Assembly (NCBI GenBank): GCA_034432375.1 | Contig: DAOUCA010000171.1 | Span: 1-64,000, forward strand | DNA from: Caldilineaceae bacterium | Lineage (GTDB): Bacteria > Chloroflexota > Anaerolineae > Caldilineales > Caldilineaceae | Length of the DNA: 64,000 nt | Direction of reading: 5' to 3' | In this document: piece after piece, positions 33,450-63,799 of the stretch | How positions within the stretch are numbered: the stretch's first letter is position 1 | How the letters are laid out: each line of letters opens with the position of its first letter | The notes under the pieces: model-generated | Told to the model about the DNA's origin: nothing | Database searches by the model: none | Seen by the model: only the letters and a program-made list of their open reading frames with translations | Made by a program: the position numbers and the translations under genes

Positions 33450-33500
33450 TTTTGATTGCAGTGATTGTTTCACCCAAAAGCGCAACTCCTGCCACGAACC

Positions 33501-34529
33501 TTAACCGAGCATTTGCCGCAACGCCGCGATCAACCCAGGCTGTGGCGGATCGGCCAGGGAATAGCTGCGATGGTTGAGCGCGCTCATATAGGTTTTGAGG
33601 ACAATATTGAAGTCCTGCAATGCGGCGTCGAGATTGAGCGGATGGACCGCGGCCTCATCTTCGAGCCAATCAAACATGGCCTCGGTCATCGCGGCTTGGC
33701 CCAAGATATCTTCGGCAACGTAGTCATGATCACCCCGTTCCACCACACCATCTATGTTGGTCTCCCAGCCCCACATGCTCCACGCCACATGGCCACGGCT
33801 GCCATAGACGGCAACGCGCTTGTGGACATGGCTCCGTTCATCGCCGGGCAGGACAAAGGGTGCATTGGGGCCGCAGCGGAGCAGTGCACTCGCACCGTTG
33901 TCAAAGGTGATGGTGGTAAGCGTGGCATCGGGGGCAAAGTGCTGTTTGGGCGTTACAGCCAAGCCAGCCGCGCCGGCCACCTGCCCCAGGATCTGCATTG
34001 GCTTGGCGTGGGGCATAAAAGCGGCAATGGCTTGCAGGGTGTGCGTGCCCTGATAGGCCATATTCATGCGGGCGCTGGCATCGATGAAACGGATTTCGCC
34101 AATCGCACCCGCTTGCACCAGTCGTTGCAACTGGGCGCGCCGGGGCTGAAAGTGCAGTTGGTGATTAATCGCGATTTTGATTTTGGCGGTGCGGGCAAAG
34201 TCGCGGATCGCTAGATAATCCTCAGCCTCAATCGCCAGTGGCTTTTCGACAATCAGCGCAGGGATACCCGCTTCCTCGGCAGCCTGAAAAATCTCCAGCC
34301 GCACATTGGGTGGCGTATTAACGTGGACGAGATCGAGCTTTTCGCGGGCAAAGAGTTCGCGATAATCGGTGTAGCGGGTGACGACGCCAAATTGATTGCC
34401 AAAGGTGTCGAGCTTCTCCTGTTGCCGGGCAGCAATGGCAACTAACGCACCACGTTGCATCTGTTGATAGGCTTCGGCGTGGCCGCGTGCCCGTCCGCCG
34501 CTCACGCCGATAATGGCACAACGAATCAT
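33501..34529 (-). CDS. Gfo/Idh/MocA-family NAD(P)-dependent oxidoreductase
   Basis: The N-terminal Rossmann motif is IGVSGGRARGHAE, with EKPLA downstream. The RBS is TAGGAGC. Confidence 0.85.
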   Translation of the reverse strand: MIRCAIIGVSGGRARGHAEAYQQMQRGALVAIAARQQEKLDTFGNQFGVVTRYTDYRELFAREKLDLVHVNTPPNVRLEIFQAAEEAGIPALIVEKPLAIEAEDYLAIRDFARTAKIKIAINHQLHFQPRRAQLQRLVQAGAIGEIRFIDASARMNMAYQGTHTLQAIAAFMPHAKPMQILGQVAGAAGLAVTPKQHFAPDATLTTITFDNGASALLRCGPNAPFVLPGDERSHVHKRVAVYGSRGHVAWSMWGWETNIDGVVERGDHDYVAEDILGQAAMTEAMFDWLEDEAAVHPLNLDAALQDFNIVLKTYMSALNHRSYSLADPPQPGLIAALRQMLG

Positions 34530-34627
34530 GGGATTTTGCTCCTAGGTTGCATTTGGATGGGATGCTTGGCATTATAGCACAGAGGCAGGATGGGGTGTAG
34601 TTGAAAAATCATCAACCAAATTCACAC

Positions 34628-34656
34628 TTGACAACTCCTTGCAACCATGATATCTT
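34628..34656 (+). promoter_or_regulatory. Sigma70-like promoter: -35 TTGACA, 17-bp spacer, -10 TATCTT, at the head of the AT-rich aro leader
   Basis: Read directly. A second candidate, TGATATATA (an extended -10), lies ~60 nt downstream. Confidence 0.4.
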
Positions 34657-34790
34657 TTGCACGTTGCAATTAATAGTTTTTCCAATCACACTATTTTTTG
34701 ATATATACAACTTTACTGATGAACACAAACAGTCAACAGCAATTGCAATCTCATCTGCGTTTATCAACCGCCCGTTCTCAGGCTGGTTCA

Positions 34791-34910
34791 ATGCTGTTTG
34801 TGCAAAGCCCACGCGATCCACTGCGTGGGTTTTTCTATGCGAGCTACTTTTATTTTTATTTTACGAACTCCATGCCATTCCAAGCGGCGGGGTCGGTGAT
34901 GCCTGGGTAG
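34791..34910 (+). CDS. Candidate Phe/Tyr-rich leader peptide (39 aa: MLFVQSPRDPLRGFFYASYFYFYFTNSMPFQAAGSVMPG) of an attenuator controlling the aroH-pheA-DAHPS-tyrA operon
   Basis: Nine of eleven consecutive codons (34830-34862) are Phe/Tyr (TTT TTC TAT .. TAC TTT TAT TTT TAT TTT). A small hairpin CCCACGC/GCGTGGG plus UUUUU sits just 5' of them. An intrinsic terminator lies 27 nt after the stop. Confidence 0.5.
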   Translation: MLFVQSPRDPLRGFFYASYFYFYFTNSMPFQAAGSVMPG

Positions 34911-34936
34911 CTCCAGAATGCAGACTGAAACCACAA

Positions 34937-34971
34937 GAGCGGGGATGGCGCAAGCCCCCCGCTCTTTTTTT
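34937..34971 (+). terminator. Rho-independent terminator: 9-bp GC-rich stem AGAGCGGGG/CCCCGCTCT, ~12-nt loop, T7 tract
   Basis: Read directly. It is ~75 nt upstream of the aroH RBS. The segment AGCGGCGGGG (34883-34892) could alternatively pair with the 3' arm. Confidence 0.8.
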
Positions 34972-35060
34972 GTGCCAAATTTTGGGCGAGAGCTAACTGT
35001 CGGCGCAGCTTGTCAAAGCCGCAATTGGCCCTTGTCAACAACTGCTGGAGGGAGCAACTG

Positions 35061-35492
35061 ATGACGATATGCCGAGGAGTACGGGGCGCAACTACAGTGG
35101 AGCGGGATGACCGTGAACTGGTTTTGCGGGCAACGCGTGAATTGCTGGGATTTATGATTCGCCTGAATGGAATTCGGACAGAGGATGTGGCAAGCGCTAT
35201 CTTTACGACGACGCCCGATATCGTCTCCGTCTTTCCCGCAACCGCGGCACGGCAGTTGGGCTGGCTCGATGTGCCATTGATGTGTGCACACGAGATGCAA
35301 GTCCCCGGCAGTCTGGGCTGCTGTGTCCGTATTTTGTTGCATTGGAATACCGACAAACCGCAACACGAAATTCAGCATGTCTACTTGCATGATGCCCGCG
35401 CGTTGCGCCCGGATAAGACGATTGTGCTGTCGGAGCAAGATATGCAGGAGTTGGCGGCATGGATCGAGGAGCAGTTGGAGAAGCATAATTAG
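35061..35492 (+). CDS. aroH: Monofunctional chorismate mutase, AroH class
   Basis: I trimmed the start to the ATG at 35061 ([16 protein letters not shown], matching B. subtilis AroH MMIRGIRGATTVE), preceded by the RBS GGAGGGAG. The ORF track starts at a TTG at 35010. Confidence 0.85.
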
Positions 35493-35526
35493 GACAAGAT
35501 GACAGGGTGAGCAGAAGGAGAATTCT

Positions 35527-36387
35527 ATGACGATAGTCGCGTTCCAAGGCGAACATGGTGCCTATTCAGAGGAAGCAGTGCGGCAGCATTTCGGTGCCAA
35601 TGTCGAGACGATGCCCTGCCATGCGTTTGAAAATATCTTTGATGCCGTGGAGCATGGCGAGGCCGATTTTGGGGCAGTCCCAGTTGAAAATTCAACGGCG
35701 GGCAGCATCAATAAAGCCTTTGATCTGCTGCTAGAACATGATCTGCGAGTCCATGGCGAAATTCTGCTGCGCGTGCGCCACTGCTTGTTAACCACCGCGG
35801 GCAACATAGGTAACATCAAAGAGGTGCGTAGCCATCCCCAAGCATTGGCGCAATGTGAGAGTTACATGAACCGCAACGGCTACACCGCTGTGCCCTGGTA
35901 TGACACGGCTGGCAGTGCTAAGGATTTGGCAGCCAAACCCGAGGAAGGAATTGCGGTGATTGCCAGCCGCCTTTCGGCAGAGACGTATGGCCTGGAGATT
36001 GTCGAAGCGGGCATCGAAGATATGCAGCAAAATTACACCCGCTTTTTTGTAGTAGGCAAGGGGGAGGCCGAAAAAGCTTCCCGATGCAAAACATCACTAG
36101 TCTTTGCGGTACCCAACACACCAGGTTCGCTCTATGGTGCGTTGGAAGAGTTTGCACGTCGGCGCATCAATCTCACCAAGATCGAGAGCCGCCCTCGGCG
36201 CAACCGGCCGTGGCAATATGTCTTCTATGTCGATTTTGATGGCCATTGGCAGGACAAAGAAGCCGGCGATGCGCTTGTCTATCTGCTCAACCGAGCTGCC
36301 TTTGTCAAGCTACTCGGCAGCTACCCGGCTGCGCCGCCAATGGAAAATGGCACGGCACAAGCGCAGGGTACGTTGTTGCAAATTTGA
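35527..36387 (+). CDS. pheA: Prephenate dehydratase with a C-terminal ACT domain
   Basis: PDT domain plus the ESRP motif ([10 protein letters not shown]). The RBS is AAGGAG. Confidence 0.9.
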
Positions 36388-36593
36388 TGCGGTCCGTGAC
36401 GTAGTGCGTTTTTCGTGTACTGTCACTGCGCCAGAAACAGATAACCGAATGCTTTTGTAGGAGTAGCGCACATAGAACTTGATCCATAAAAAGGCGCGGA
36501 TTTGGCCACAGTTCACGCAACACGCATCACGCATCAAATGTTTCATTTATCAAAACAGATTACTCACTATCATACTATATCAAGGAGAAACTC

Positions 36594-37664
36594 ATGATCG
36601 TCGTAATGAAGCCGGGAACAACCCGTTTGGAAGTGGAAGCGGTGATGAAACGGGCGGAGCAGATGGGGGTCTCAACCCATCCGATCTATGGTGAAAGCCG
36701 CACAGTGGTGGCGCTGGTGGGCGACTTGACCCGTGTCTCGCGCGAAGTTTTTGACGAGATGAAGGGGGTGGCCCACACCATGCGCATTCAAGAGCCGAAC
36801 AAGTTGACCAACCGCACCACCCAACCAGAAGATTTGGTCATCGAGATTGCTGATGGCGTGCGTATTGGTGGCAATGAAGTGATTGTCATGGCCGGCCCTT
36901 GTAGTGTAGAAGATCGGGATAGCATTGTCGAGGTGGCGATTGCGGTCAAGCAAGCCGGCGCCAAAGTGTTACGGGGCGGGGCCTTCAAGCCGCGCACCAG
37001 CCCCTACGACTTCCAGGGGTTGGGCGAAGAAGGGTTGAAATACCTCGCCGAGGCGCGCGAGATCACCGGCCTGCCGATTATCACCGAAGTGATGACCGTC
37101 GAAACTGTGCCGCTGGTAGCCGAGTACTCAGACATTCTGCAGATTGGGGCACGCAACATGCAGAACTACGGTCTGCTCAATGCCGTCGGCAAGGTTGACA
37201 AGCCGGTTATGCTCAAGCGCGGCATCAGTGGCCTGATCAAGGAGTTGATCATGTGCGCCGAGTACATTGCCAGCAACGGCAACCATAAGATTATGCTCTG
37301 TGAGCGGGGCATTCGCACCTATGAGACGACGACCCGCAACACCTTCGACCTTAACGCGATTCCCGTGCTCAAGCAGTCGAGCAATCTACCAGTGGTCGCC
37401 GATCCCTCCCACGGCACGGGCTACCGTGAATTCGTCCCTGCCATGGCCAAGGCTGCCGTTGCCGCGGGGGCGGATGCACTGATTCTCGAAGTCCACCCCG
37501 ATCCGGAGAATGCACTCAGCGATGGTCGGCAGACGATCTCCACCGAAACCTTCGCTAAGTTGATGATGGATCTGCGGCGGATTGCCGAAGCAGTCGACCG
37601 CTTCATTGATGAGCCAGATGTACAAGATCTCGCCGATTTCGCCGAGTTGGAAGCAGTGGCGTAG
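36594..37664 (+). CDS. aroF: 3-deoxy-7-phosphoheptulonate (DAHP) synthase, class I-beta, with an N-terminal ferredoxin-like regulatory domain
   Basis: The KDSA/AroG core has GPCSVE and KPRTSPY motifs. The N-terminal ~70-aa regulatory domain starts MIVVMKPG. The RBS is AAGGAGA. Confidence 0.9.
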
Positions 37665-37758
37665 GGGAGAAGTAGACAGGTAAATAGGTAGACACGTACT
37701 TGTTTCCCTGTTTCCCTATCTACCCGCCTACCAATGTTATTACACAAGGAGCAACCGA

Positions 37759-38775
37759 ATGATTATTGTCATGAAACAAGGGGCTGTACAGTCCCAAATT
37801 GAAGATGTCGTGAACCGTGTCGAAGAGTTGGGCAAAAAGGTTCACCTGAGCCGCGGAGAGGCGCGCACGATCATCGGCGTGATCGGGGCGGATGAGCATA
37901 TGATTAGCGATGCCAACTTTGAGGTGATGGATGGGGTGGAGCGCACGATGCGCGTGATGCAGCCCTATAAGCTGGCCAGCCGCGACTTCAGCCACGAAAA
38001 TACGGTGATTGATGTCAACGGCGTCAAAATTGCCGGTCAAAAAGTGGTCGTCATTGCCGGCCCATGTAGCGTCGAGAGCCGGGAGATGATCATTGAAACG
38101 GCACATATGGTGAAAGCAGGCGGCGCAGATATTCTACGCGGCGGGGCCTTCAAACCGCGCAGCAGCCCCTATAGCTTCCAGGGCTTGGGCGAAGAAGGAC
38201 TGAAATACCTGGCCGAAGCGCGCGAAGCGACCGGTTTGCCGATCATCACCGAAATTATGAGCGTCGATGAGATTGAACTGGTCGGGGAGTACACCGACAT
38301 CTTCCAGGTTGGCGCGCGCAACAATCAGAACTACTCGTTGCTCAAAGCACTGGGCAAGACGAACAAACCAGTCTTCCTCAAGCGGGGAACCAGCGGCACG
38401 ATTCAAGAATTGCTCATGGGTGCGGAGTACATCATGAGCGGCGGCAACATGCAGGTGATCGTCTGCGAGCGCGGGATTCGCACCTACGAGACGGCGACGC
38501 GCAACACCTTTGATATCAATGCGCTGCCGCTGCTCAAGGAACTGACCCACCTGCCCGTCTGCGCCGATCCAGCGCACGGCACGGGGATGGCCAATCTCGT
38601 CCCCGCCATTGCCAAAGCATCGGTCGCGGCTGGGGCCGATATGCTGATGCTCGAAGTCCACCCCGATCCTAAGCGCGCTTGGAGCGACGGTGCGCAGAGT
38701 TTGAACCCGGATGGGTTTGCGAAATTGGTGAAAGACCTGAAGCCCTTGGCCGCAGCAGTGGGCAGGGAGATTTGA
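37759..38775 (+). CDS. aroF: Second DAHP synthase paralogue (class I-beta with an N-terminal regulatory domain)
   Basis: Same architecture (MIIVMKQG..., GPCSVES, KPRSSPY). The RBS is AAGGAG. Confidence 0.9.
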
Positions 38776-38803
38776 CAAGATGAAGGGATGACCGGATGAC
38801 AAG

Positions 38804-38928
38804 ATGATACTGTTGGCCTTGCTTACGGAACACCTTACGCCCCACTGGGATACTGTCATTCCTGCGCAGGCAGGAATCCATTGTACAGGAGTGACATAGC
38901 CAGATTGTAAGGCAGTGCAACAGTATCA
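38804..38928. mobile_element. Degenerate MITE copy (left TIR TGATACTGTTGGCCTTGCTTAC, right end GTAAGGCAGTGCAACAGTATCA) enclosing a REP hairpin
   Basis: Its termini resemble those of the intact copies at 39036, 48608 and 55941. It is flanked by CAAGA/CCAGA. Confidence 0.45.
38855..38878. repeat. REP-like hairpin GTCATTCCTGCGCAGGCAGGAATC (single copy)
   Basis: Identical to the units at 26-49 and 60501-60524. Confidence 0.7.
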
Positions 38929-39035
38929 CCAGATGACTGGATGATCGGTTTATCGATGCTCTCGGTGACACCCGATACTTATAATCGTTTTAGGCGACCA
39001 AGTATTGGCAATCACGCGGTCACCCCTTCATCTTG

Positions 39036-39182
39036 TGACACTGTTGGCCTACCTTACGGAGTGGGATTAAAATCCCCTCCTAATACTGAGAAGTCGCCTC
39101 AGCGACTAGACTAGCGCCTGCAGGTGCTTCTCGTTGTTAGGGCAGGGTTTCAATCCTGTCTTAAGGTAGGCCAACTGTATCA
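39036..39182. mobile_element. MITE copy (147 bp) with 22-bp terminal inverted repeats TGACACTGTTGGCCTACCTTAC / TTAAGGTAGGCCAACTGTATCA and a 5-bp TSD TCTTG
   Basis: TIRs and flanking direct repeat read directly. It is inserted into a GACAAGATGA decamer satellite. Confidence 0.65.
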
Positions 39183-39263
39183 TCTTGTCATCTTGTCCTT
39201 CAGTCATCGTGTCATCTTATCCTCCCTTCATTCTCTTAAACTCAGCACGAAACGAAAACGAGT

Positions 39264-40139
39264 ATGACCAAACGTCTACGGGATTGCAGCGTTACCGTGA
39301 TTGGCCTCGGCCTCATGGGGGCAAGCCTTTGCCTTGATTTAAAAAAGGGAGCGCTCTGTCGCGAGGTGCGAGGGGTAGCACGGCGTACGGCGACTGTGCT
39401 GGAAGCGTTCTTTGCCGAGGCCGTTGATCTCGCCACCAACGATCCACACACCGGTGTTCTGGGCGCGGATATGGTGATTCTGGCGACGCCCGTGCGCACG
39501 ATTGTCAGTATGCTTGAGGAGATCGCACCCTATTTGCAACCCGGTACCGTTGTGATGGATATGGGCAGCACCAAGGCTGAAATTTGCGCGGCGATGGAGC
39601 ACCTGCCACCCGGCATCCAGCCGATTGGGGGCCACCCGATGTGTGGCAAAGAGACCGCCGGTTTTGAATCCGCCGAGACGGGGCTCTACCAGCGGGCGCC
39701 GTGGGTCTTGACGCCGCTGCCGCGCACCGGTGGGAGTGCCATTGCATTGGCAACTGAGTTAGCCGAAGCGGTCGGTGCACGGCCTTATGTCTTGGAAGCG
39801 GCGCGCCACGACCGGTTGGTGGCCAGCATTAGTCATTTACCTTTTCTACTCGCCAGTGCCCTTGTCCACGCCGTTGCTACAGTGGGCCAAGAGGATGAAG
39901 TCGTTTGGCAATTGGCGGCTGGCGGCTTTCGCGATACAAGTCGGGTCGCGGCCAGTGACACGCGTATGTTTATGGATATTCTCATGACCAATCGCAGCGC
40001 GGTGCTGGAACAGTTGGAGAGCTTTGCCGGGCAGGTTGATGAGTTGCGCAAGCTATTATACAACGGCGATGAGGAACAGCTGCGGGCAAAGTTGATGGTT
40101 TCGCAGGAGCAGCGGGCACGATGGAAGCAGCATAAATAA
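39264..40139 (+). CDS. tyrA: Prephenate/arogenate dehydrogenase
   Basis: N-terminal NAD-binding motif [13 protein letters not shown]; PDH domain. Confidence 0.85.
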
Positions 40140-61658: not shown

Positions 61659-62768
61659 ATGAAGCTAATGACCGTTCGTATCTCGCCCCTGCTACACAAT
61701 CTACTCCTAATGGCCAGCGTCATTGTGATCGTTGCCGGTATGCGCGCGGCATCACCGCTATTGAGCCCACTGTTATTGGCGCTCTTTCTAGCCTTGCTGC
61801 TCTATCCTGCCTACCAATGGTTGCTCAATCGGGGCATCCCCACCTGGCTGACAGTTTCGCTGATGGTGGGGGGCATCCTTTTGGCGGGGGTCTGCATTCT
61901 CGGGTTGCTTTGGCTCTCGATTGAACAGCTGCGCACCAATATCTTTCTCTACGCTAGCCGCCTTACCGTGCAATCGATGCGCTTACAGATATGGCTAGAG
62001 ACGCTGGGCGTCGATGTACCACGGATTCTTACCCAAGAGTTGCTCAACCGTCAGTTATTAATCGGCACTACAGCTAGTTTGTTGACAACGGTAGGCTCCT
62101 TACTCTCAACCAGCTTTTTTGTCCTGGTCGCCACAATCTTTCTCCTGCTACAAGGTACCCATCTCTCGGCACGCTTTGCCGACGAGGTGGGGCCGAACAA
62201 CGTGCTCTCTGCACAAGCCTTTCAAGTGGCGCAGCGGGTAGCCCATTTTTTTTCGATTCGCGTGCGGGTCAATTTGATTGTGGCAACCGGCATTACGCTT
62301 TGGCTGCTGATCTTGGGTGTCGACCTCGCCATTCTATGGGGGATCTTGGCCTTTTTTCTTGGCTTTGTCATGTATGTCGGGCTGGCAATTGCTGCACTCT
62401 TTCCCGCCTTTTTAGCACTGGCAGAGTCAGGACCGGTTTGGGCATTGCTCGTGATCGTTGGCTTCTTTGTGATCAACGTTGGCGTCGAAAATGTGCTGGC
62501 ACCCGCAATGATGGCCCAAGGGCTGAATCTTGCTCCGGTGGTTGCGCTGGCGTCTCTCCTCTTTTGGGTTTGGGTCTTGGGCCCACTGGGCTTTGTGCTG
62601 GCAATCCCCCTCACGGTCATCGTCGTGATGATCCTGGCCAGCTATCACGAAACCGAATGGTTGTTGCCCTTATTGACCATGGAACGACCGCCAGGCGTTA
62701 CACCGCTACCAATACCCGAACCAATATCCGAACCAACCCTGGCCACCGCTGGCCCTGAACTGGAGTAA
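61659..62768 (+). CDS. AI-2E family transporter (PerM/UPF0118) membrane protein
   Basis: 8-TM topology typical of PF01594. Confidence 0.75.
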   Translation: MKLMTVRISPLLHNLLLMASVIVIVAGMRAASPLLSPLLLALFLALLLYPAYQWLLNRGIPTWLTVSLMVGGILLAGVCILGLLWLSIEQLRTNIFLYASRLTVQSMRLQIWLETLGVDVPRILTQELLNRQLLIGTTASLLTTVGSLLSTSFFVLVATIFLLLQGTHLSARFADEVGPNNVLSAQAFQVAQRVAHFFSIRVRVNLIVATGITLWLLILGVDLAILWGILAFFLGFVMYVGLAIAALFPAFLALAESGPVWALLVIVGFFVINVGVENVLAPAMMAQGLNLAPVVALASLLFWVWVLGPLGFVLAIPLTVIVVMILASYHETEWLLPLLTMERPPGVTPLPIPEPISEPTLATAGPELE

Positions 62769-62776
62769 CAGATCCA

Positions 62777-63799
62777 ATGAAAAAAGTAATCATTACCGGC
62801 CCCCAGCAAAGCGCGCTCGTCGATGTGGTGGATCCCACACCAATCGCCAATTGGGTGGTTGTCAAGGTTGAGATTGCCCCCATGTGTACCGAGTACAAGG
62901 CCTATGTCGCCGGCAACCCGGTTGACCAACTGGGCCACGAAGCCGCGGGGGAAGTGGTTGCGGTGGCGCAGCCAGGGCGCGTCAGCGTTGGGGACCGCGT
63001 CGTTGTCATGCCGACCAACGCCTGTGGCCAATGTGCGCTCTGTTTGGCTGGTGAGTATATCCACTGCGAACAGAACCTCAACTTTGCGGCGATCCACGGC
63101 ACGCGTGATGGCAGCGCCACCTATGCGCAATACCTGCTTAAACCTGACCATCTACTCGTGCCCATTCCCAATGGGATGAGCTTTGCGCACGCGGCCATGG
63201 CCTGCTGTGGTCTCGGCCCCACCTTTGGTGCGATGCAGACAATGGCTGTCAATGCCTTTGATACACTCTTGATCAGTGGTTTGGGTCCTGTCGGCCTCGG
63301 CGGCGTGATCAACGGCGTCTACCGGGGCGCGCGGGTGATCGGTGTGGAGAGCAACCCTTATCGAGCACAACTAGCACTTGCATTGGGGGCAACGACGATC
63401 ATTGATCCCACAAAGCCCGATGCCCTCGCGCAAATCCGCGATTTGACGGCCGGACGTGGCGTCGACAAAGCGATCGACTGCTCCGGCACCGTCGCCGCCC
63501 ATCGACTTTGCATTGACGCCGCCCGACGCAAAGGGAAAGTGGCCTTTGTCGGCGAGTGCAGCGACGCCACACCGCTGTATATCAGCCCGGATATGATCCG
63601 CAAAGGGCTAACCTTGATTGGCTCCTGGCATTACCGAATGCAGGAGACGCCAACCCTTATGACGCTAATTGACCACGTTGGGGCACAGATCGATCAGCTG
63701 ATCAGCCACCGGTTTTCCCTGGCCGCCGTGCAAGACGCGTGGCAGTTGCAGTTGACCGGGCAGACAGCCAAGGTGCTGTTGCAGCCGTGGCAGCTGTAG
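62777..63799 (+). CDS. Zinc-dependent alcohol dehydrogenase family (MDR superfamily) oxidoreductase
   Basis: GHEAAGEV catalytic-zinc motif, Cys-rich structural-zinc loop (CGQCALCLAGEYIHC), GLGPVG Rossmann motif. Confidence 0.85.
   Translation: MKKVIITGPQQSALVDVVDPTPIANWVVVKVEIAPMCTEYKAYVAGNPVDQLGHEAAGEVVAVAQPGRVSVGDRVVVMPTNACGQCALCLAGEYIHCEQNLNFAAIHGTRDGSATYAQYLLKPDHLLVPIPNGMSFAHAAMACCGLGPTFGAMQTMAVNAFDTLLISGLGPVGLGGVINGVYRGARVIGVESNPYRAQLALALGATTIIDPTKPDALAQIRDLTAGRGVDKAIDCSGTVAAHRLCIDAARRKGKVAFVGECSDATPLYISPDMIRKGLTLIGSWHYRMQETPTLMTLIDHVGAQIDQLISHRFSLAAVQDAWQLQLTGQTAKVLLQPWQL

What the first reader, a model, noticed from the sequence alone, without database searches (positions are those of the whole stretch)
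34620..34975. Candidate ribosome-mediated Phe/Tyr attenuator in front of an aroH-pheA-DAHPS-tyrA operon
An AT-rich island sits in a 60%-GC genome and contains, in order:
- a sigma70-like promoter (TTGACA-17-TATCTT);
- a 39-codon ORF in which 9 of 11 consecutive codons are Phe/Tyr (GFFYASYFYFYF);
- a small hairpin plus a U5 tract just 5' of that codon run;
- a strong intrinsic terminator (9-bp GC stem + T7) 27 nt after the leader stop and ~75 nt before the chorismate mutase RBS.

A segment resembling the terminator 5' arm (AGCGGCGGGG, 34883-34892) could pair with the terminator 3' arm.

Leader-peptide attenuation of aromatic operons is classical in Proteobacteria but, as far as I know, not described for this lineage. 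It would be a compact way to put the whole pathway under Phe/Tyr control: chorismate mutase, prephenate dehydratase, two DAHP synthases and prephenate dehydrogenase.
Basis: partly seen in the sequence, partly recalled or inferred. Interest (0 to 1): 0.85.

Follow-up and report, generated by a model that had tools for sequence, protein, structure and literature searches.

The report
Aromatic amino-acid leader-peptide attenuator in Caldilineae
The region is very probably a leader-peptide transcription attenuator that switches an aromatic amino-acid biosynthesis gene cluster on when Phe/Tyr/Trp-charged tRNAs run short; the mechanism is classical, but this family sits in a phylum (Chloroflexota) where I found no earlier description of one.

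Summary
The window comes from a Caldilineaceae genome (Chloroflexota). The same arrangement occurs in front of all 37 related aroH-pheA-DAHPS-tyrA clusters recovered:
- an aromatic-rich mini-ORF;
- a hairpin directly 5' of the codon run;
- an intrinsic terminator 19-30 nt after the leader stop codon.

It is absent from 42 solitary aroH loci, nearly all Planctomycetota.

Two details need correcting:
- **Leader start.** The leader more likely starts at ATG 34719 (63 codons) than at 34791.
- **Antiterminator.** It is a 70-82 nt hairpin (window 34874-34949). Its base (34874-81 with 34942-49) ties up the terminator 5' arm, and its apical loop holds the leader stop codon.

This base pairing co-evolves across nine clades (2 of 362,880 label permutations score as well).

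Folding with a ribosome parked on any F/Y/W codon leaves the antiterminator intact. One to three codons further on it is lost.

Rfam, a protein search and the literature gave no prior description. Verdict: real, a new member of a known kind, moderately interesting. Function is inferred, not tested.

The parts
34628..34656 (+). Sigma-70-like promoter: TTGACA, 17 nt, TATCTT, with TG before the -10. Predicted start near 34663.
   Evidence: The same TTGACA-17/18-TATCTT or TATTCT type lies 103-206 nt upstream of the codon run in clades A, D, F, H, I and part of C. Consensus match only; the start site is not mapped.
34719..34910 (+). Leader ORF, preferred reading: 63 codons plus TAG (MNTNSQQQLQSHLRLSTARSQAGSMLFVQSPRDPLRGFFYASYFYFYFTNSMPFQAAGSVMPG*).
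   Evidence: In the 20 relatives where I assigned an ATG start, the preferred in-frame ATG gives 53-77 codons, mostly 57-69. The closest relative in the set, L001, has no ATG at the position of 34791. There is no Shine-Dalgarno motif before either ATG. The start codon is inferred.
34804..34838 (+). Hairpin 1 (GC core 34808-14 with 34823-29, loop 34815-22), directly followed by UUUUUCUAU, which is also the start of the codon run. It looks like an intrinsic terminator or a pause site, and it lies inside the ORF.
   Evidence: -18.2 kcal/mol, z = -6.0. It was recovered from a sequence-only alignment of 29 loci as a 10-bp helix, 95% paired, with CG/UG and GC/AU/GU exchanges. The amino acids encoded by the 5' arm change (PR, LR, PL) while pairing is kept.
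34830..34862 (+). Regulatory codon run: TTT TTC TAT GCG AGC TAC TTT TAT TTT TAT TTT (5 Phe and 4 Tyr in 11 codons).
   Evidence: Relatives have 7-10 F/Y/W codons in 7-17 codons. Columns swap F, Y and W, and third positions vary T/C.
34874..34949 (+). Antiterminator: a 76-nt imperfect hairpin. Base helix GCCAUUCC 34874-81 with GGGAUGGC 34942-49, plus G84-C40 and C85-G39. It occupies 8 of the 13 stem nucleotides of the terminator 5' arm.
   Evidence: -31.8 kcal/mol, z = -1.9 in the window. The same 70-82 nt hairpin is the minimum-energy fold in all 36 loci, with z from -3.8 to -5.6 in the five relatives tested. Own-clade complementarity: 2 of 362,880 permutations as good.
34902..34916 (+). Apical hairpin of the antiterminator (CCUGG with CCAG/G), with the leader stop codon UAG 34908-10 in its loop.
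   Evidence: The stop codon lies within -8 to +3.5 nt of the hairpin midpoint in all 36 loci. The stem sequence differs between loci while pairing is kept, for example CCUGG/CCAG, GCUUG/CAAGC, CUGCUUG/CAAGCAG.
34935..34971 (+). Intrinsic terminator: AAGAGCGGGG-AU-GGC-GCAA-GCC-CCCCGCUCUU, with a run of T's to 34971.
   Evidence: -23.9 kcal/mol, z = -5.3. Present in all 36 loci, 19-30 nt (median 24) after the leader stop and 48-248 nt before aroH. The base helix is 97% paired, with GC/AU and UA/AU/GC exchanges.
34883..34892 (+). It lies in the 5' strand of the antiterminator. Its pairing with the terminator 3' arm is not conserved.
   Evidence: -18.8 kcal/mol in the window, but own-clade mean -9.75 against cross-clade -9.62, and 154,189 of 362,880 permutations as good.
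35061..36387 (+). First regulated genes: aroH-type chorismate mutase (35061-35492; ribosome-binding site GGAGGGAG 35047-54) and prephenate dehydratase pheA (35527-36387).
   Evidence: Pfam CM_1 at 5.7e-45; PDT at 2e-62 plus ACT. The aroH-pheA order is kept in all leader-bearing loci.
36594..40139 (+). Further cluster genes on the same strand: DAHP synthase (36594-37664), second DAHP synthase (37759-38775) and prephenate dehydrogenase tyrA (39264-40139). Co-transcription with the leader is not established.
   Evidence: Pfam; synteny; no strong terminator in the gaps. There is a 206-nt AT-rich gap before the first DAHP synthase and a repeat element in the 488-nt gap before tyrA.

Best explanation
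This is a ribosome-mediated (leader-peptide) transcription attenuator for an aromatic amino-acid biosynthesis cluster.

**Proposed sequence of events**
1. Transcription starts upstream of a roughly 63-codon leader ORF (34719-34910).
2. Hairpin 1 (34804-34833) with its U-run slows or stops RNA polymerase until a translating ribosome melts it. Ribosome and polymerase then enter the decision region together.
3. With enough Phe-, Tyr- (and Trp-) tRNA, the ribosome runs through the F/Y run (34830-34862) and on to the stop codon. The stop codon sits in the apical loop of the antiterminator hairpin (34874-34949). On the way the ribosome unwinds the whole 5' strand of that hairpin. The terminator 5' arm is therefore free, the terminator (34935-34971) forms, and transcription ends before aroH.
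4. When aromatic aminoacyl-tRNAs are scarce, the ribosome stalls inside the run. Its leading edge stops just short of 34874. The antiterminator folds as soon as its 3' strand is made and sequesters 34939-34949, so polymerase reads through into aroH-pheA and probably the DAHP synthase genes.

**Shown here:** the elements, their conservation, the co-evolution of the antiterminator base with the terminator arm, and the geometry.

**Inferred:** translation of the ORF and its start codon, the role of hairpin 1, the kinetic choice between the two folds, and the response to amino-acid supply.
For: 1. **Conservation.** All 37 related Chloroflexota loci that have aroH followed by pheA carry an aromatic-rich ORF, a terminator, and the same spacing. 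The 42 solitary aroH loci, almost all Planctomycetota, show none.
2. **Codon-level selection.** Aromatic columns swap F, Y and W, and third positions vary T/C. In clade C the changes at aromatic codons are all synonymous.
3. **Antiterminator.** A 70-82 nt hairpin joining the leader to the terminator 5' arm is the minimum-energy fold in every locus. Its energy is -27.5 to -44.5 kcal/mol, against -14.8 to -27.3 for the terminators. RNAalifold recovers it within clades B and C.
4. **Co-evolution.** The leader segment pairs best with its own clade's terminator arm: mean -20.2 against -13.9 kcal/mol cross-clade, and 2 of 362,880 permutations as good.
5. **Geometry.** The last aromatic codon lies 6-18 nt (median 12) 5' of the antiterminator base. 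The stop codon lies within 8 nt of the hairpin midpoint.
6. **Ribosome-position folding.** With the A site on any F/Y/W codon, the fraction of terminator 5'-arm nucleotides paired upstream stays on a plateau of 0.60-0.91. It falls within 1-3 codons after the run. The probability of the antiterminator base helix is at least 0.94 in all 36 loci with a stalled ribosome. In L046 and L031 even the full-length equilibrium flips, from terminator probability near 0 to near 1.
7. **Other helices.** Hairpin 1 and the terminator are 96% paired, against 31-67% in the slid controls.
8. **Promoter.** A promoter of the same type is conserved upstream in several clades.
Against: - No experiment. Transcription start, translation of the ORF and the amino-acid response are all untested.
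- Neither candidate start codon has a Shine-Dalgarno motif. Several relatives (clade C, L009, L017, L019) have no in-frame ATG at all.
- In the window and most loci, the full-length equilibrium favours the terminator wherever the ribosome sits. The switch must therefore be kinetic, which is usual for attenuators but was not modelled here.
- The window's own antiterminator is the weakest of the set (z = -1.9). Its leader-to-terminator duplex is not better than shuffles on its own (102 of 500).
- RNAalifold finds no consensus across all clades, because the helix register differs between them. The cross-clade evidence is complementarity, not column-by-column covariation.
- Naked RNA forms the antiterminator by default in most loci. 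The design therefore depends on an untested role for hairpin 1 or on tight transcription-translation coupling.
Confidence: 0.8

Rival explanations
1. One reading: a 39-codon leader starting at 34791, in which the antiterminator is the pairing of AGCGGCGGGG (34883-92) with the terminator 3' arm.
For: The pairing is strong in this window (-18.8 kcal/mol). ATG 34791 has a weak AGG 10-12 nt upstream.
Against: Across nine clades this pairing shows no own-clade preference: -9.75 against -9.62 kcal/mol, with 154,189 of 362,880 permutations as good. It would enclose the nearer and better-matched 5' arm, so it should lose the kinetic race. ATG 34791 is absent in L001, and the preferred ATG start in relatives mostly gives 57-69 codons.
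Confidence: 0.07
2. The terminator and antiterminator are real, but the switch is set by something other than ribosome stalling. Candidates are an RNA-binding protein that recognises the U/A-rich triplet run or hairpin 1, a ligand-binding RNA, or general transcription-translation coupling with no amino-acid specificity.
For: Hairpin 1 is the most conserved element, and its function is unknown. The run is U-rich and could be a protein-binding site or simply the U-tract of hairpin 1. No Shine-Dalgarno motif precedes the ORF.
Against: - The run lies 5' of the antiterminator, so a factor bound there would not touch it. Only something moving 3' through 34874-34910 can open it.
- The reading frame stays open to a stop codon at the hairpin apex in all nine clades. 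By my rough estimate the chance of that is about 0.08 per clade.
- Columns exchange F, Y and W through second-position T/A/G changes, and third positions vary synonymously. This is a codon-level pattern, not a U-richness pattern.
- No Rfam riboswitch or T-box match.
Confidence: 0.08
3. The ORF encodes a functional small hydrophobic or aromatic peptide, and the downstream hairpins are an ordinary terminator for that small gene.
For: The ORF is long for a leader (57-69 codons in most relatives). Parts of the peptide look conserved, such as R..WRGF and the C-terminal PG/PA.
Against: No protein in the 5.8-billion-sequence database shares even three 5-residue words with it. The conserved peptide stretches coincide with RNA helices, whose pairing is kept while the amino acids change. 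The N-terminal half is poorly conserved and varies in length. A plain terminator would not need a co-evolving antiterminator.
Confidence: 0.03

Closest known systems
Escherichia coli pheL-pheA attenuator (Rfam Phe_leader) and the pheM-pheST leader
   Same: A leader ORF with a run of Phe codons upstream of prephenate dehydratase. Terminator and antiterminator are mutually exclusive. A stalled ribosome gives read-through. (Established knowledge; summarised in PMC11802643 and PMC3082878.)
   Different: - The E. coli leader has 15 codons with Phe only; this one has about 63 codons with mixed F/Y(/W).
- In E. coli the regulatory codons lie in strand 1 of a 1:2 protector/pause hairpin. Here they lie 5' of the antiterminator, and the stop codon is at the antiterminator apex.
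- No conserved protector was found here.
- There is no sequence or structure match to any Rfam leader at E <= 10, apart from a chance-level Leu_leader hit on hairpin 1.
Corynebacterium glutamicum aroR leader upstream of aroF (Neshat et al. 2014, as described in PMC11802643 and PMC7356990)
   Same: A leader peptide with mixed Phe and Tyr codons controlling a DAHP synthase operon, that is, the common aromatic pathway. It is the closest functional analogue.
   Different: It is actinobacterial, with only a Phe-Tyr-Phe motif. It is reported to respond to Phe and not Tyr (PMC11802643), and one paper describes it as translational control (PMC7356990). I did not have its sequence, so homology was not tested.
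Actinobacterial trp and leuS attenuators (Seliverstov et al. 2005, PMC1262725)
   Same: They are described with a leader ORF, one antiterminator hairpin and one terminator hairpin with a poly-U tract. This is the same two-hairpin layout outside Proteobacteria.
   Different: Different amino acid, a short leader, and no hairpin plus U-tract inside the ORF ahead of the regulatory codons.
E. coli trpL attenuator
   Same: A pause hairpin that synchronises ribosome and polymerase, and a kinetic choice between a weaker antiterminator and a stronger terminator. (Established knowledge.)
   Different: In trpL the stop codon sits at the apex of the 1:2 protector and region 2 is masked by the terminating ribosome. 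Here the stop sits at the apex of the antiterminator itself, and the candidate pause hairpin precedes the regulatory codons.
pyrBI / pyrE-type coupling attenuators of enterobacteria
   Same: A terminator-like hairpin plus U-tract lying inside a leader ORF, whose formation a closely following ribosome can prevent. This is a possible analogue for hairpin 1. (Established knowledge; the resemblance is only a lead.)
   Different: There the in-ORF terminator is the only decision point and senses UTP through polymerase pausing. Here it would be a first checkpoint ahead of an amino-acid-sensing stage.
T-box leaders
   Same: They control amino-acid genes by terminator/antiterminator choice, and they occur in Chloroflexi (PMC2494555, PMC3766115).
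   Different: No T-box match in the window or in relatives. The signal here is read by a translating ribosome, not by direct binding of tRNA to the RNA.

Membership tests
Ribosome-mediated (leader-peptide) transcription attenuators | Short upstream ORF with a cluster of codons for the amino acid(s) made by the downstream genes | tested here: met
   9 F/Y in 11 codons at 34830-62. Relatives have 7-10 F/Y/W codons. The ORF is conserved in 37 related loci. The downstream genes make Phe and Tyr and feed the common pathway.
Ribosome-mediated (leader-peptide) transcription attenuators | Intrinsic terminator between the leader and the first structural gene | tested here: met
   34935-34971, -23.9 kcal/mol, z = -5.3. 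Present in all 36 loci analysed. Base helix 97% paired, with compensatory changes.
Ribosome-mediated (leader-peptide) transcription attenuators | Antiterminator structure mutually exclusive with the terminator | tested here: met
   The hairpin 34874-34949 occupies 8 of 13 stem nucleotides of the terminator 5' arm (7-12 of 10-17 in relatives). Co-evolution: 2 of 362,880 permutations as good.
Ribosome-mediated (leader-peptide) transcription attenuators | Ribosome position (stalled at the regulatory codons or at the stop) decides which structure can form | tested here: met
   By folding only. The antiterminator is intact with the A site on any F/Y/W codon and is lost 1-3 codons later. The stop codon is at the antiterminator apex in all loci.
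Ribosome-mediated (leader-peptide) transcription attenuators | Read-through responds to the supply of the cognate aminoacyl-tRNA and needs translation of the leader | not testable with these tools
   Needs reporter fusions, Term-seq or in vitro coupled transcription-translation.
Ribosome-mediated (leader-peptide) transcription attenuators | Protector (1:2) hairpin that gives termination when the leader is not translated | tested here: not met
   Naked truncated RNA still forms the antiterminator in most loci. A protector-like pairing (34841-49 with 34905-13) is predicted in the window but is not conserved. This feature belongs to the E. coli trp/phe design and is not required for the class as a whole (compare PMC1262725).
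Rfam Phe_leader and other Rfam amino-acid leaders | Match to the family covariance model | tested here: not met
   In 33500-36500 the only leader hit at E <= 10 is Leu_leader at 18.7 bits (gathering score 50), E = 1.4, aligned to hairpin 1. There are no gathering-score hits in L029, L030 or L061.
T-box riboswitch | Match to Rfam T-box (specifier loop, T-box sequence) | tested here: not met
   No hit.
C. glutamicum aroR-type aromatic attenuator | Sequence or structural homology to the aroR leader | not tested
Only the functional description was read.
pyrBI-type coupling attenuator (considered for hairpin 1 only) | Terminator hairpin plus U-tract inside a translated leader ORF | tested here: inconclusive
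   Hairpin 1 plus U5-6 has the anatomy and is conserved in clades A-E. Whether it terminates or pauses, and whether the ORF is translated, are unknown.

The most novel reading that the evidence does not exclude
The family may use a two-checkpoint design that replaces the classical protector hairpin.

- **Checkpoint 1.** An intrinsic terminator (hairpin 1 plus U-tract) sits inside the leader ORF, immediately before the regulatory codons. It stops any polymerase that is not closely followed by a ribosome.
- **Checkpoint 2.** Only coupled complexes reach the second decision. There a ribosome that is not stalled melts an antiterminator that would otherwise form by default, with the stop codon at its apex.

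This yields the same three-state logic as trp: no translation means off, translation without stalling means off, stalling means on. It achieves that with two terminators in series and no 1:2 hairpin.
Probability: 0.35. Interest if true: 0.65.

Novelty: new member of a known kind. Interest (0 to 1): 0.5.

Why it matters
- **Wider distribution.** It extends leader-peptide attenuation to Chloroflexota (Caldilineae). The literature I could search documents this mechanism in Proteobacteria, Actinobacteria and a few Firmicutes, and describes T-boxes and riboswitches for Chloroflexi.
- **A usable family definition.** The analysis yields a set of conserved parts that could seed an Rfam family and improve annotation of Caldilineae genomes from activated sludge and marine sponges:
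  - hairpin plus U-run;
  - F/Y/W run;
  - a 70-82 nt antiterminator with the stop codon at its apex;
  - a terminator 19-30 nt after the stop.
- **One sensor for several aromatic amino acids.** A single sensor appears to read two or three aromatic amino acids. It controls both branch enzymes and, probably, entry into the common pathway.
- **A possible alternative to the protector hairpin.** If the in-ORF terminator-like hairpin proves to be a coupling checkpoint, it would be a different solution to the problem of untranslated leaders.

Tried and rejected
- **Rfam.** An E-value search of 33500-36500 and gathering-threshold searches of three relatives found no real match.
- **Equilibrium folding with ribosome masks.** Pairs spanning the ribosome were allowed. 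The terminator probability was about 0.99 everywhere, and 'paired to anything upstream' did not discriminate. I replaced this with folding only the RNA 3' of the ribosome, on transcripts cut before the terminator 3' arm.
- **RNAalifold across all clades.** It worked within clades B and C. I therefore used per-locus folds plus a swap/permutation test.
- **Rung-by-rung covariation count.** I prepared a count on artificially concatenated helix ends. I dropped it because the outermost pair shifts by 1-3 nt between close relatives, so columns would not be homologous.
- **Classical 1:2 protector:** predicted in the window but not conserved.
- **Hairpin 1's 3' arm pairing with the antiterminator 5' base:** complementary in L046 by eye, but not in the window or clade C. 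Not pursued.
- **Leader peptide as a protein family:** no database hit.
- **Other amino-acid-run mini-ORFs in the 64-kb window.** Only the 34677-34910 frame has a run followed by a T-tract at a suitable distance. A second aromatic hit at 62706-62789 on the minus strand lies inside coding sequence of the plus strand and was discarded.
- **Literature.** Searches for a Chloroflexi/Caldilinea leader-peptide attenuator found nothing relevant.
Full report
**1. What is in the window**

The 531-nt gap lies between a divergent GFO/IDH/MocA oxidoreductase (33501-34529, minus strand) and an AroH-type chorismate mutase (35061-35492). It is AT-rich: GC is 0.37-0.41, against 0.55-0.65 around it.

Downstream on the same strand lie:
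- prephenate dehydratase;
- two DAHP synthases with ferredoxin-like N-terminal domains;
- prephenate dehydrogenase;
- EPSP synthase;
- shikimate dehydrogenase.

- the promoter-like site at 34628-34656;
- the ORF 34791-34910, with FFYASYFYFYF at 34830-34862;
- a hairpin (core 34808-14 with 34823-29; -18.2 kcal/mol, z = -6.0) followed by U5;
- a strong terminator (34935-34971; -23.9 kcal/mol, z = -5.3).

Small corrections:
- The U5 tract is the first two Phe codons.
- The terminator starts 25 nt after the stop codon, not 27.
- An in-frame ATG at 34719 extends the ORF to 63 codons.

**2. Where it comes from, and its relatives**

The chorismate mutase has hundreds of close homologues (72-93% identity), and those that carry a name are labelled Caldilineaceae. 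That family belongs to Chloroflexota, class Caldilineae.

A scan of one genome per species returned 80 aroH loci. Thirty-five Chloroflexota loci carry an F/Y/W-rich mini-ORF within 700 nt upstream of aroH. Two more (L030, L061) carry a shorter version, SFYYLFSY, with the same terminator.

All 37 have aroH followed by pheA. Wherever the fetched DNA reaches far enough, one or two DAHP synthase genes and tyrA follow. The remaining loci are almost all Planctomycetota. There aroH stands alone and nothing comparable lies upstream. They serve as a negative control.

By sequence, the leader regions fall into nine clades (A to I).

**3. Conserved anatomy**

In all 36 loci analysed in detail (the window plus 35 relatives):
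- A terminator with a U-tract follows the leader stop codon after 19-30 nt (median 24). It lies 48-248 nt before aroH.
- A sequence-only MAFFT alignment of 29 loci recovers two helices without any structural input: hairpin 1 (10 bp, 95% paired) and the terminator base (9 bp, 97% paired). Both show compensatory changes. Slid controls are 31-67% paired.
- Hairpin 1 keeps its pairing while the amino acids it encodes change: SPRD, NLRH, DPLH. Selection is therefore on the RNA.
- In the codon run, columns exchange F, Y and W, and third positions vary T/C. In clade C the only changes at aromatic codons are synonymous. Selection there acts on aromatic codons in that frame, not merely on U-richness.

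**4. The antiterminator**

I folded each leader from 50 nt before the stop codon to the last base before the terminator 3' arm. Every locus gave the same picture: one long imperfect hairpin of 70-82 nt, with energy from -27.5 to -44.5 kcal/mol.
- Its base pairs a segment of the ORF 6-18 nt after the last aromatic codon with the terminator 5' arm and loop.
- Its apical loop contains the leader stop codon, within -8 to +3.5 nt of the midpoint.

In the window:
- The hairpin spans 34874-34949.
- GCCAUUCC (34874-81) pairs with GGGAUGGC (34942-49).
- UAG (34908-10) sits in the loop of CCUGG/CCAG.
- Energy -31.8 kcal/mol, z = -1.9.
- The five relatives tested reach z = -3.8 to -5.6.

The paired sequences differ completely between clades, yet each matches its own partner:

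| Locus | Leader segment | Terminator 5' arm segment |
|---|---|---|
| L012 | CGUCUCCAC | GUGGAGACG |
| L046 | CCGUCCCACGC | GCGUGGGACGG |
| L017 | GCGUUCCGCGC | GCGUGGAGCGC |
| L028 | GGAUCGC | GCGAUCC |

(Sequences.)

A swap test makes this quantitative. Duplex energy between a 36-nt leader segment and the terminator 5' arm averages -20.2 kcal/mol for own-clade pairs and -13.9 for cross-clade pairs. Only 2 of 362,880 ways of assigning leaders to terminators do as well as the true assignment.

RNAalifold recovers the hairpin within clades B and C. It fails across all clades because bulges shift the register.

It shows no own-clade preference: -9.75 against -9.62 kcal/mol, with 154,189 of 362,880 permutations as good. 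This is despite the strong match in the window, -18.8 kcal/mol.

**5. How ribosome position maps onto structure**

I folded only the RNA 3' of a ribosome, with its leading edge 13 nt past the first base of the A-site codon. Transcripts ended just before the terminator 3' arm.
- The fraction of terminator 5'-arm nucleotides held by upstream RNA stays on a plateau (0.60-0.91) for every A-site position in the F/Y/W run.
- It falls within one to three codons after the last aromatic codon.
- This held in all twelve loci tested, which include the window and all nine clades.
- With a ribosome on the last or a middle aromatic codon, the antiterminator base helix has probability at least 0.94 in all 36 loci.

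For full-length RNA at equilibrium:
- The terminator wins in the window and in most loci, whatever the ribosome position. The choice must therefore be kinetic, as it is in the classical trp attenuator (established knowledge).
- In L046 and L031 the equilibrium itself flips, from terminator probability near 0 with the ribosome in the run to near 1 after it. L012, L008 and L028 show this partly.

**6. The leader ORF and its start**

- Where an in-frame ATG exists, the ATG I take as the start gives 53-77 codons in relatives, mostly 57-69 (63 in the window). It usually lies shortly after an in-frame stop.
I therefore prefer 34719.
- Neither ATG has a Shine-Dalgarno motif. Clade C, L009, L017 and L019 lack an ATG altogether, so the start remains uncertain.
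- A TTGACA-17/18-TATCTT or TATTCT promoter recurs upstream in clades A, D, F, H, I and part of C.
- In L028 and L032 the -10 element ends 7 nt before the ATG, which suggests a leaderless leader mRNA.

**7. Hairpin 1 and the untranslated state**

Naked truncated RNA forms the antiterminator by default in most loci. It does not in the window, where 34841-49 pairs with 34905-13, nor in a few others. So there is no conserved protector hairpin.

Hairpin 1 is GC-rich with 7-12 bp. It is followed directly by U4-6 and lies inside the ORF, just before the regulatory codons. It has the anatomy of an intrinsic terminator or a hairpin-dependent pause.

I infer that it holds or stops polymerase until a ribosome melts it. 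That would synchronise the two machines and deal with untranslated transcripts. This step is inference only.

**8. Comparison with known systems**

- No Rfam family matches.
- The leader peptide has no relative among 5.8 billion predicted proteins.
- Full-text searches found no leader-peptide attenuator reported for Chloroflexi or Caldilinea.
- The mechanism class is classical. The closest functional analogue is the C. glutamicum aroR leader, which contains Phe-Tyr-Phe and sits upstream of the DAHP synthase gene aroF.
- The closest in target gene is E. coli pheL-pheA.
- The two-hairpin layout resembles the actinobacterial trp and leuS attenuators.
- What differs here:
  - the long leader;
  - the mixed F/Y/W run;
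  - the stop codon at the antiterminator apex;
  - the in-ORF hairpin plus U-tract.

**9. Extent of control**

- aroH-pheA (35-nt gap) is almost certainly co-transcribed with the leader.
- The DAHP synthase genes follow after 206-nt and 94-nt gaps with no strong predicted terminator. They are syntenic in all relatives.
- In this window a ~440-nt element with 53-nt inverted ends fills the gap before tyrA. Control of tyrA, aroA and aroE is therefore open.

**10. Verdict**

The element is a new, well-conserved family of leader-peptide attenuators in Chloroflexota. It is a new member of a known kind, and its function is inferred from sequence and structure. Interest is moderate (0.5). It would be higher if the in-ORF hairpin proves to be a coupling checkpoint.

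Noticed in passing
window 38773-39214: A ~440-nt element with 53-nt imperfect terminal inverted repeats (81% complementary) fills most of the 488-nt gap between the second DAHP synthase and tyrA. Its internal 20-mer CTGTTGGCCTNNCTTACGGA occurs four times in the window (38810+, 39041+, 48890-, 56074-; 0 expected). It looks like a MITE/REP-type repeat family. Relatives have roughly 20-190 nt in this gap.
   Followed up: partly
window 36388-36593: A 206-nt AT-rich gap (GC about 0.42) between pheA and the first DAHP synthase, with no predicted terminator. It could hold an internal promoter or a further control element.
   Followed up: partly
L028 2696 and L032 2700 (leader ATG): A TTGACA-17-TATTGT/TATTCT promoter ends 7 nt before the leader ATG. 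In these genomes the leader peptide mRNA may be leaderless.
   Followed up: no
L030 2830-2960; L061 2820-2950: Two Caldilineaceae loci have a reduced aromatic run (SFYYLFSY: 5 aromatic codons in 8), with the same terminator and the same gene cluster. They were missed by the first threshold.
   Followed up: partly
L027 3495-5392: Two tandem pheA homologues (67% and 60% identical to the window's PheA) follow aroH in this sponge-clade genome.
   Followed up: no
window 34899-34910 and the equivalent positions in clades A and B: The leader often ends in Pro-Gly-stop or Pro-Ala-stop (MPG*, LPG*, MPA*, KPG*). C-terminal Pro is known to slow termination, which would prolong the ribosome's stay at the antiterminator apex. 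The same nucleotides also form the apical hairpin, so the two constraints cannot be separated here.
   Followed up: no
L033-L080 (Planctomycetota, mostly Pirellulales): AroH chorismate mutases of Pirellulales are 60-68% identical to the Caldilineae protein. They rank alongside the more distant Caldilineae homologues, but they stand alone without pheA or a leader. This may reflect lateral transfer of aroH or strong conservation.
   Followed up: no
window 34841-34849 with 34905-34913: In naked RNA, GAGCUACUU in the F/Y run pairs with GGGUAGCUC around the stop codon. Together with a local hairpin (34867-75 with 34886-93), this blocks the antiterminator, giving a protector-like fold. It is predicted in the window and a few relatives only.
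   Followed up: partly
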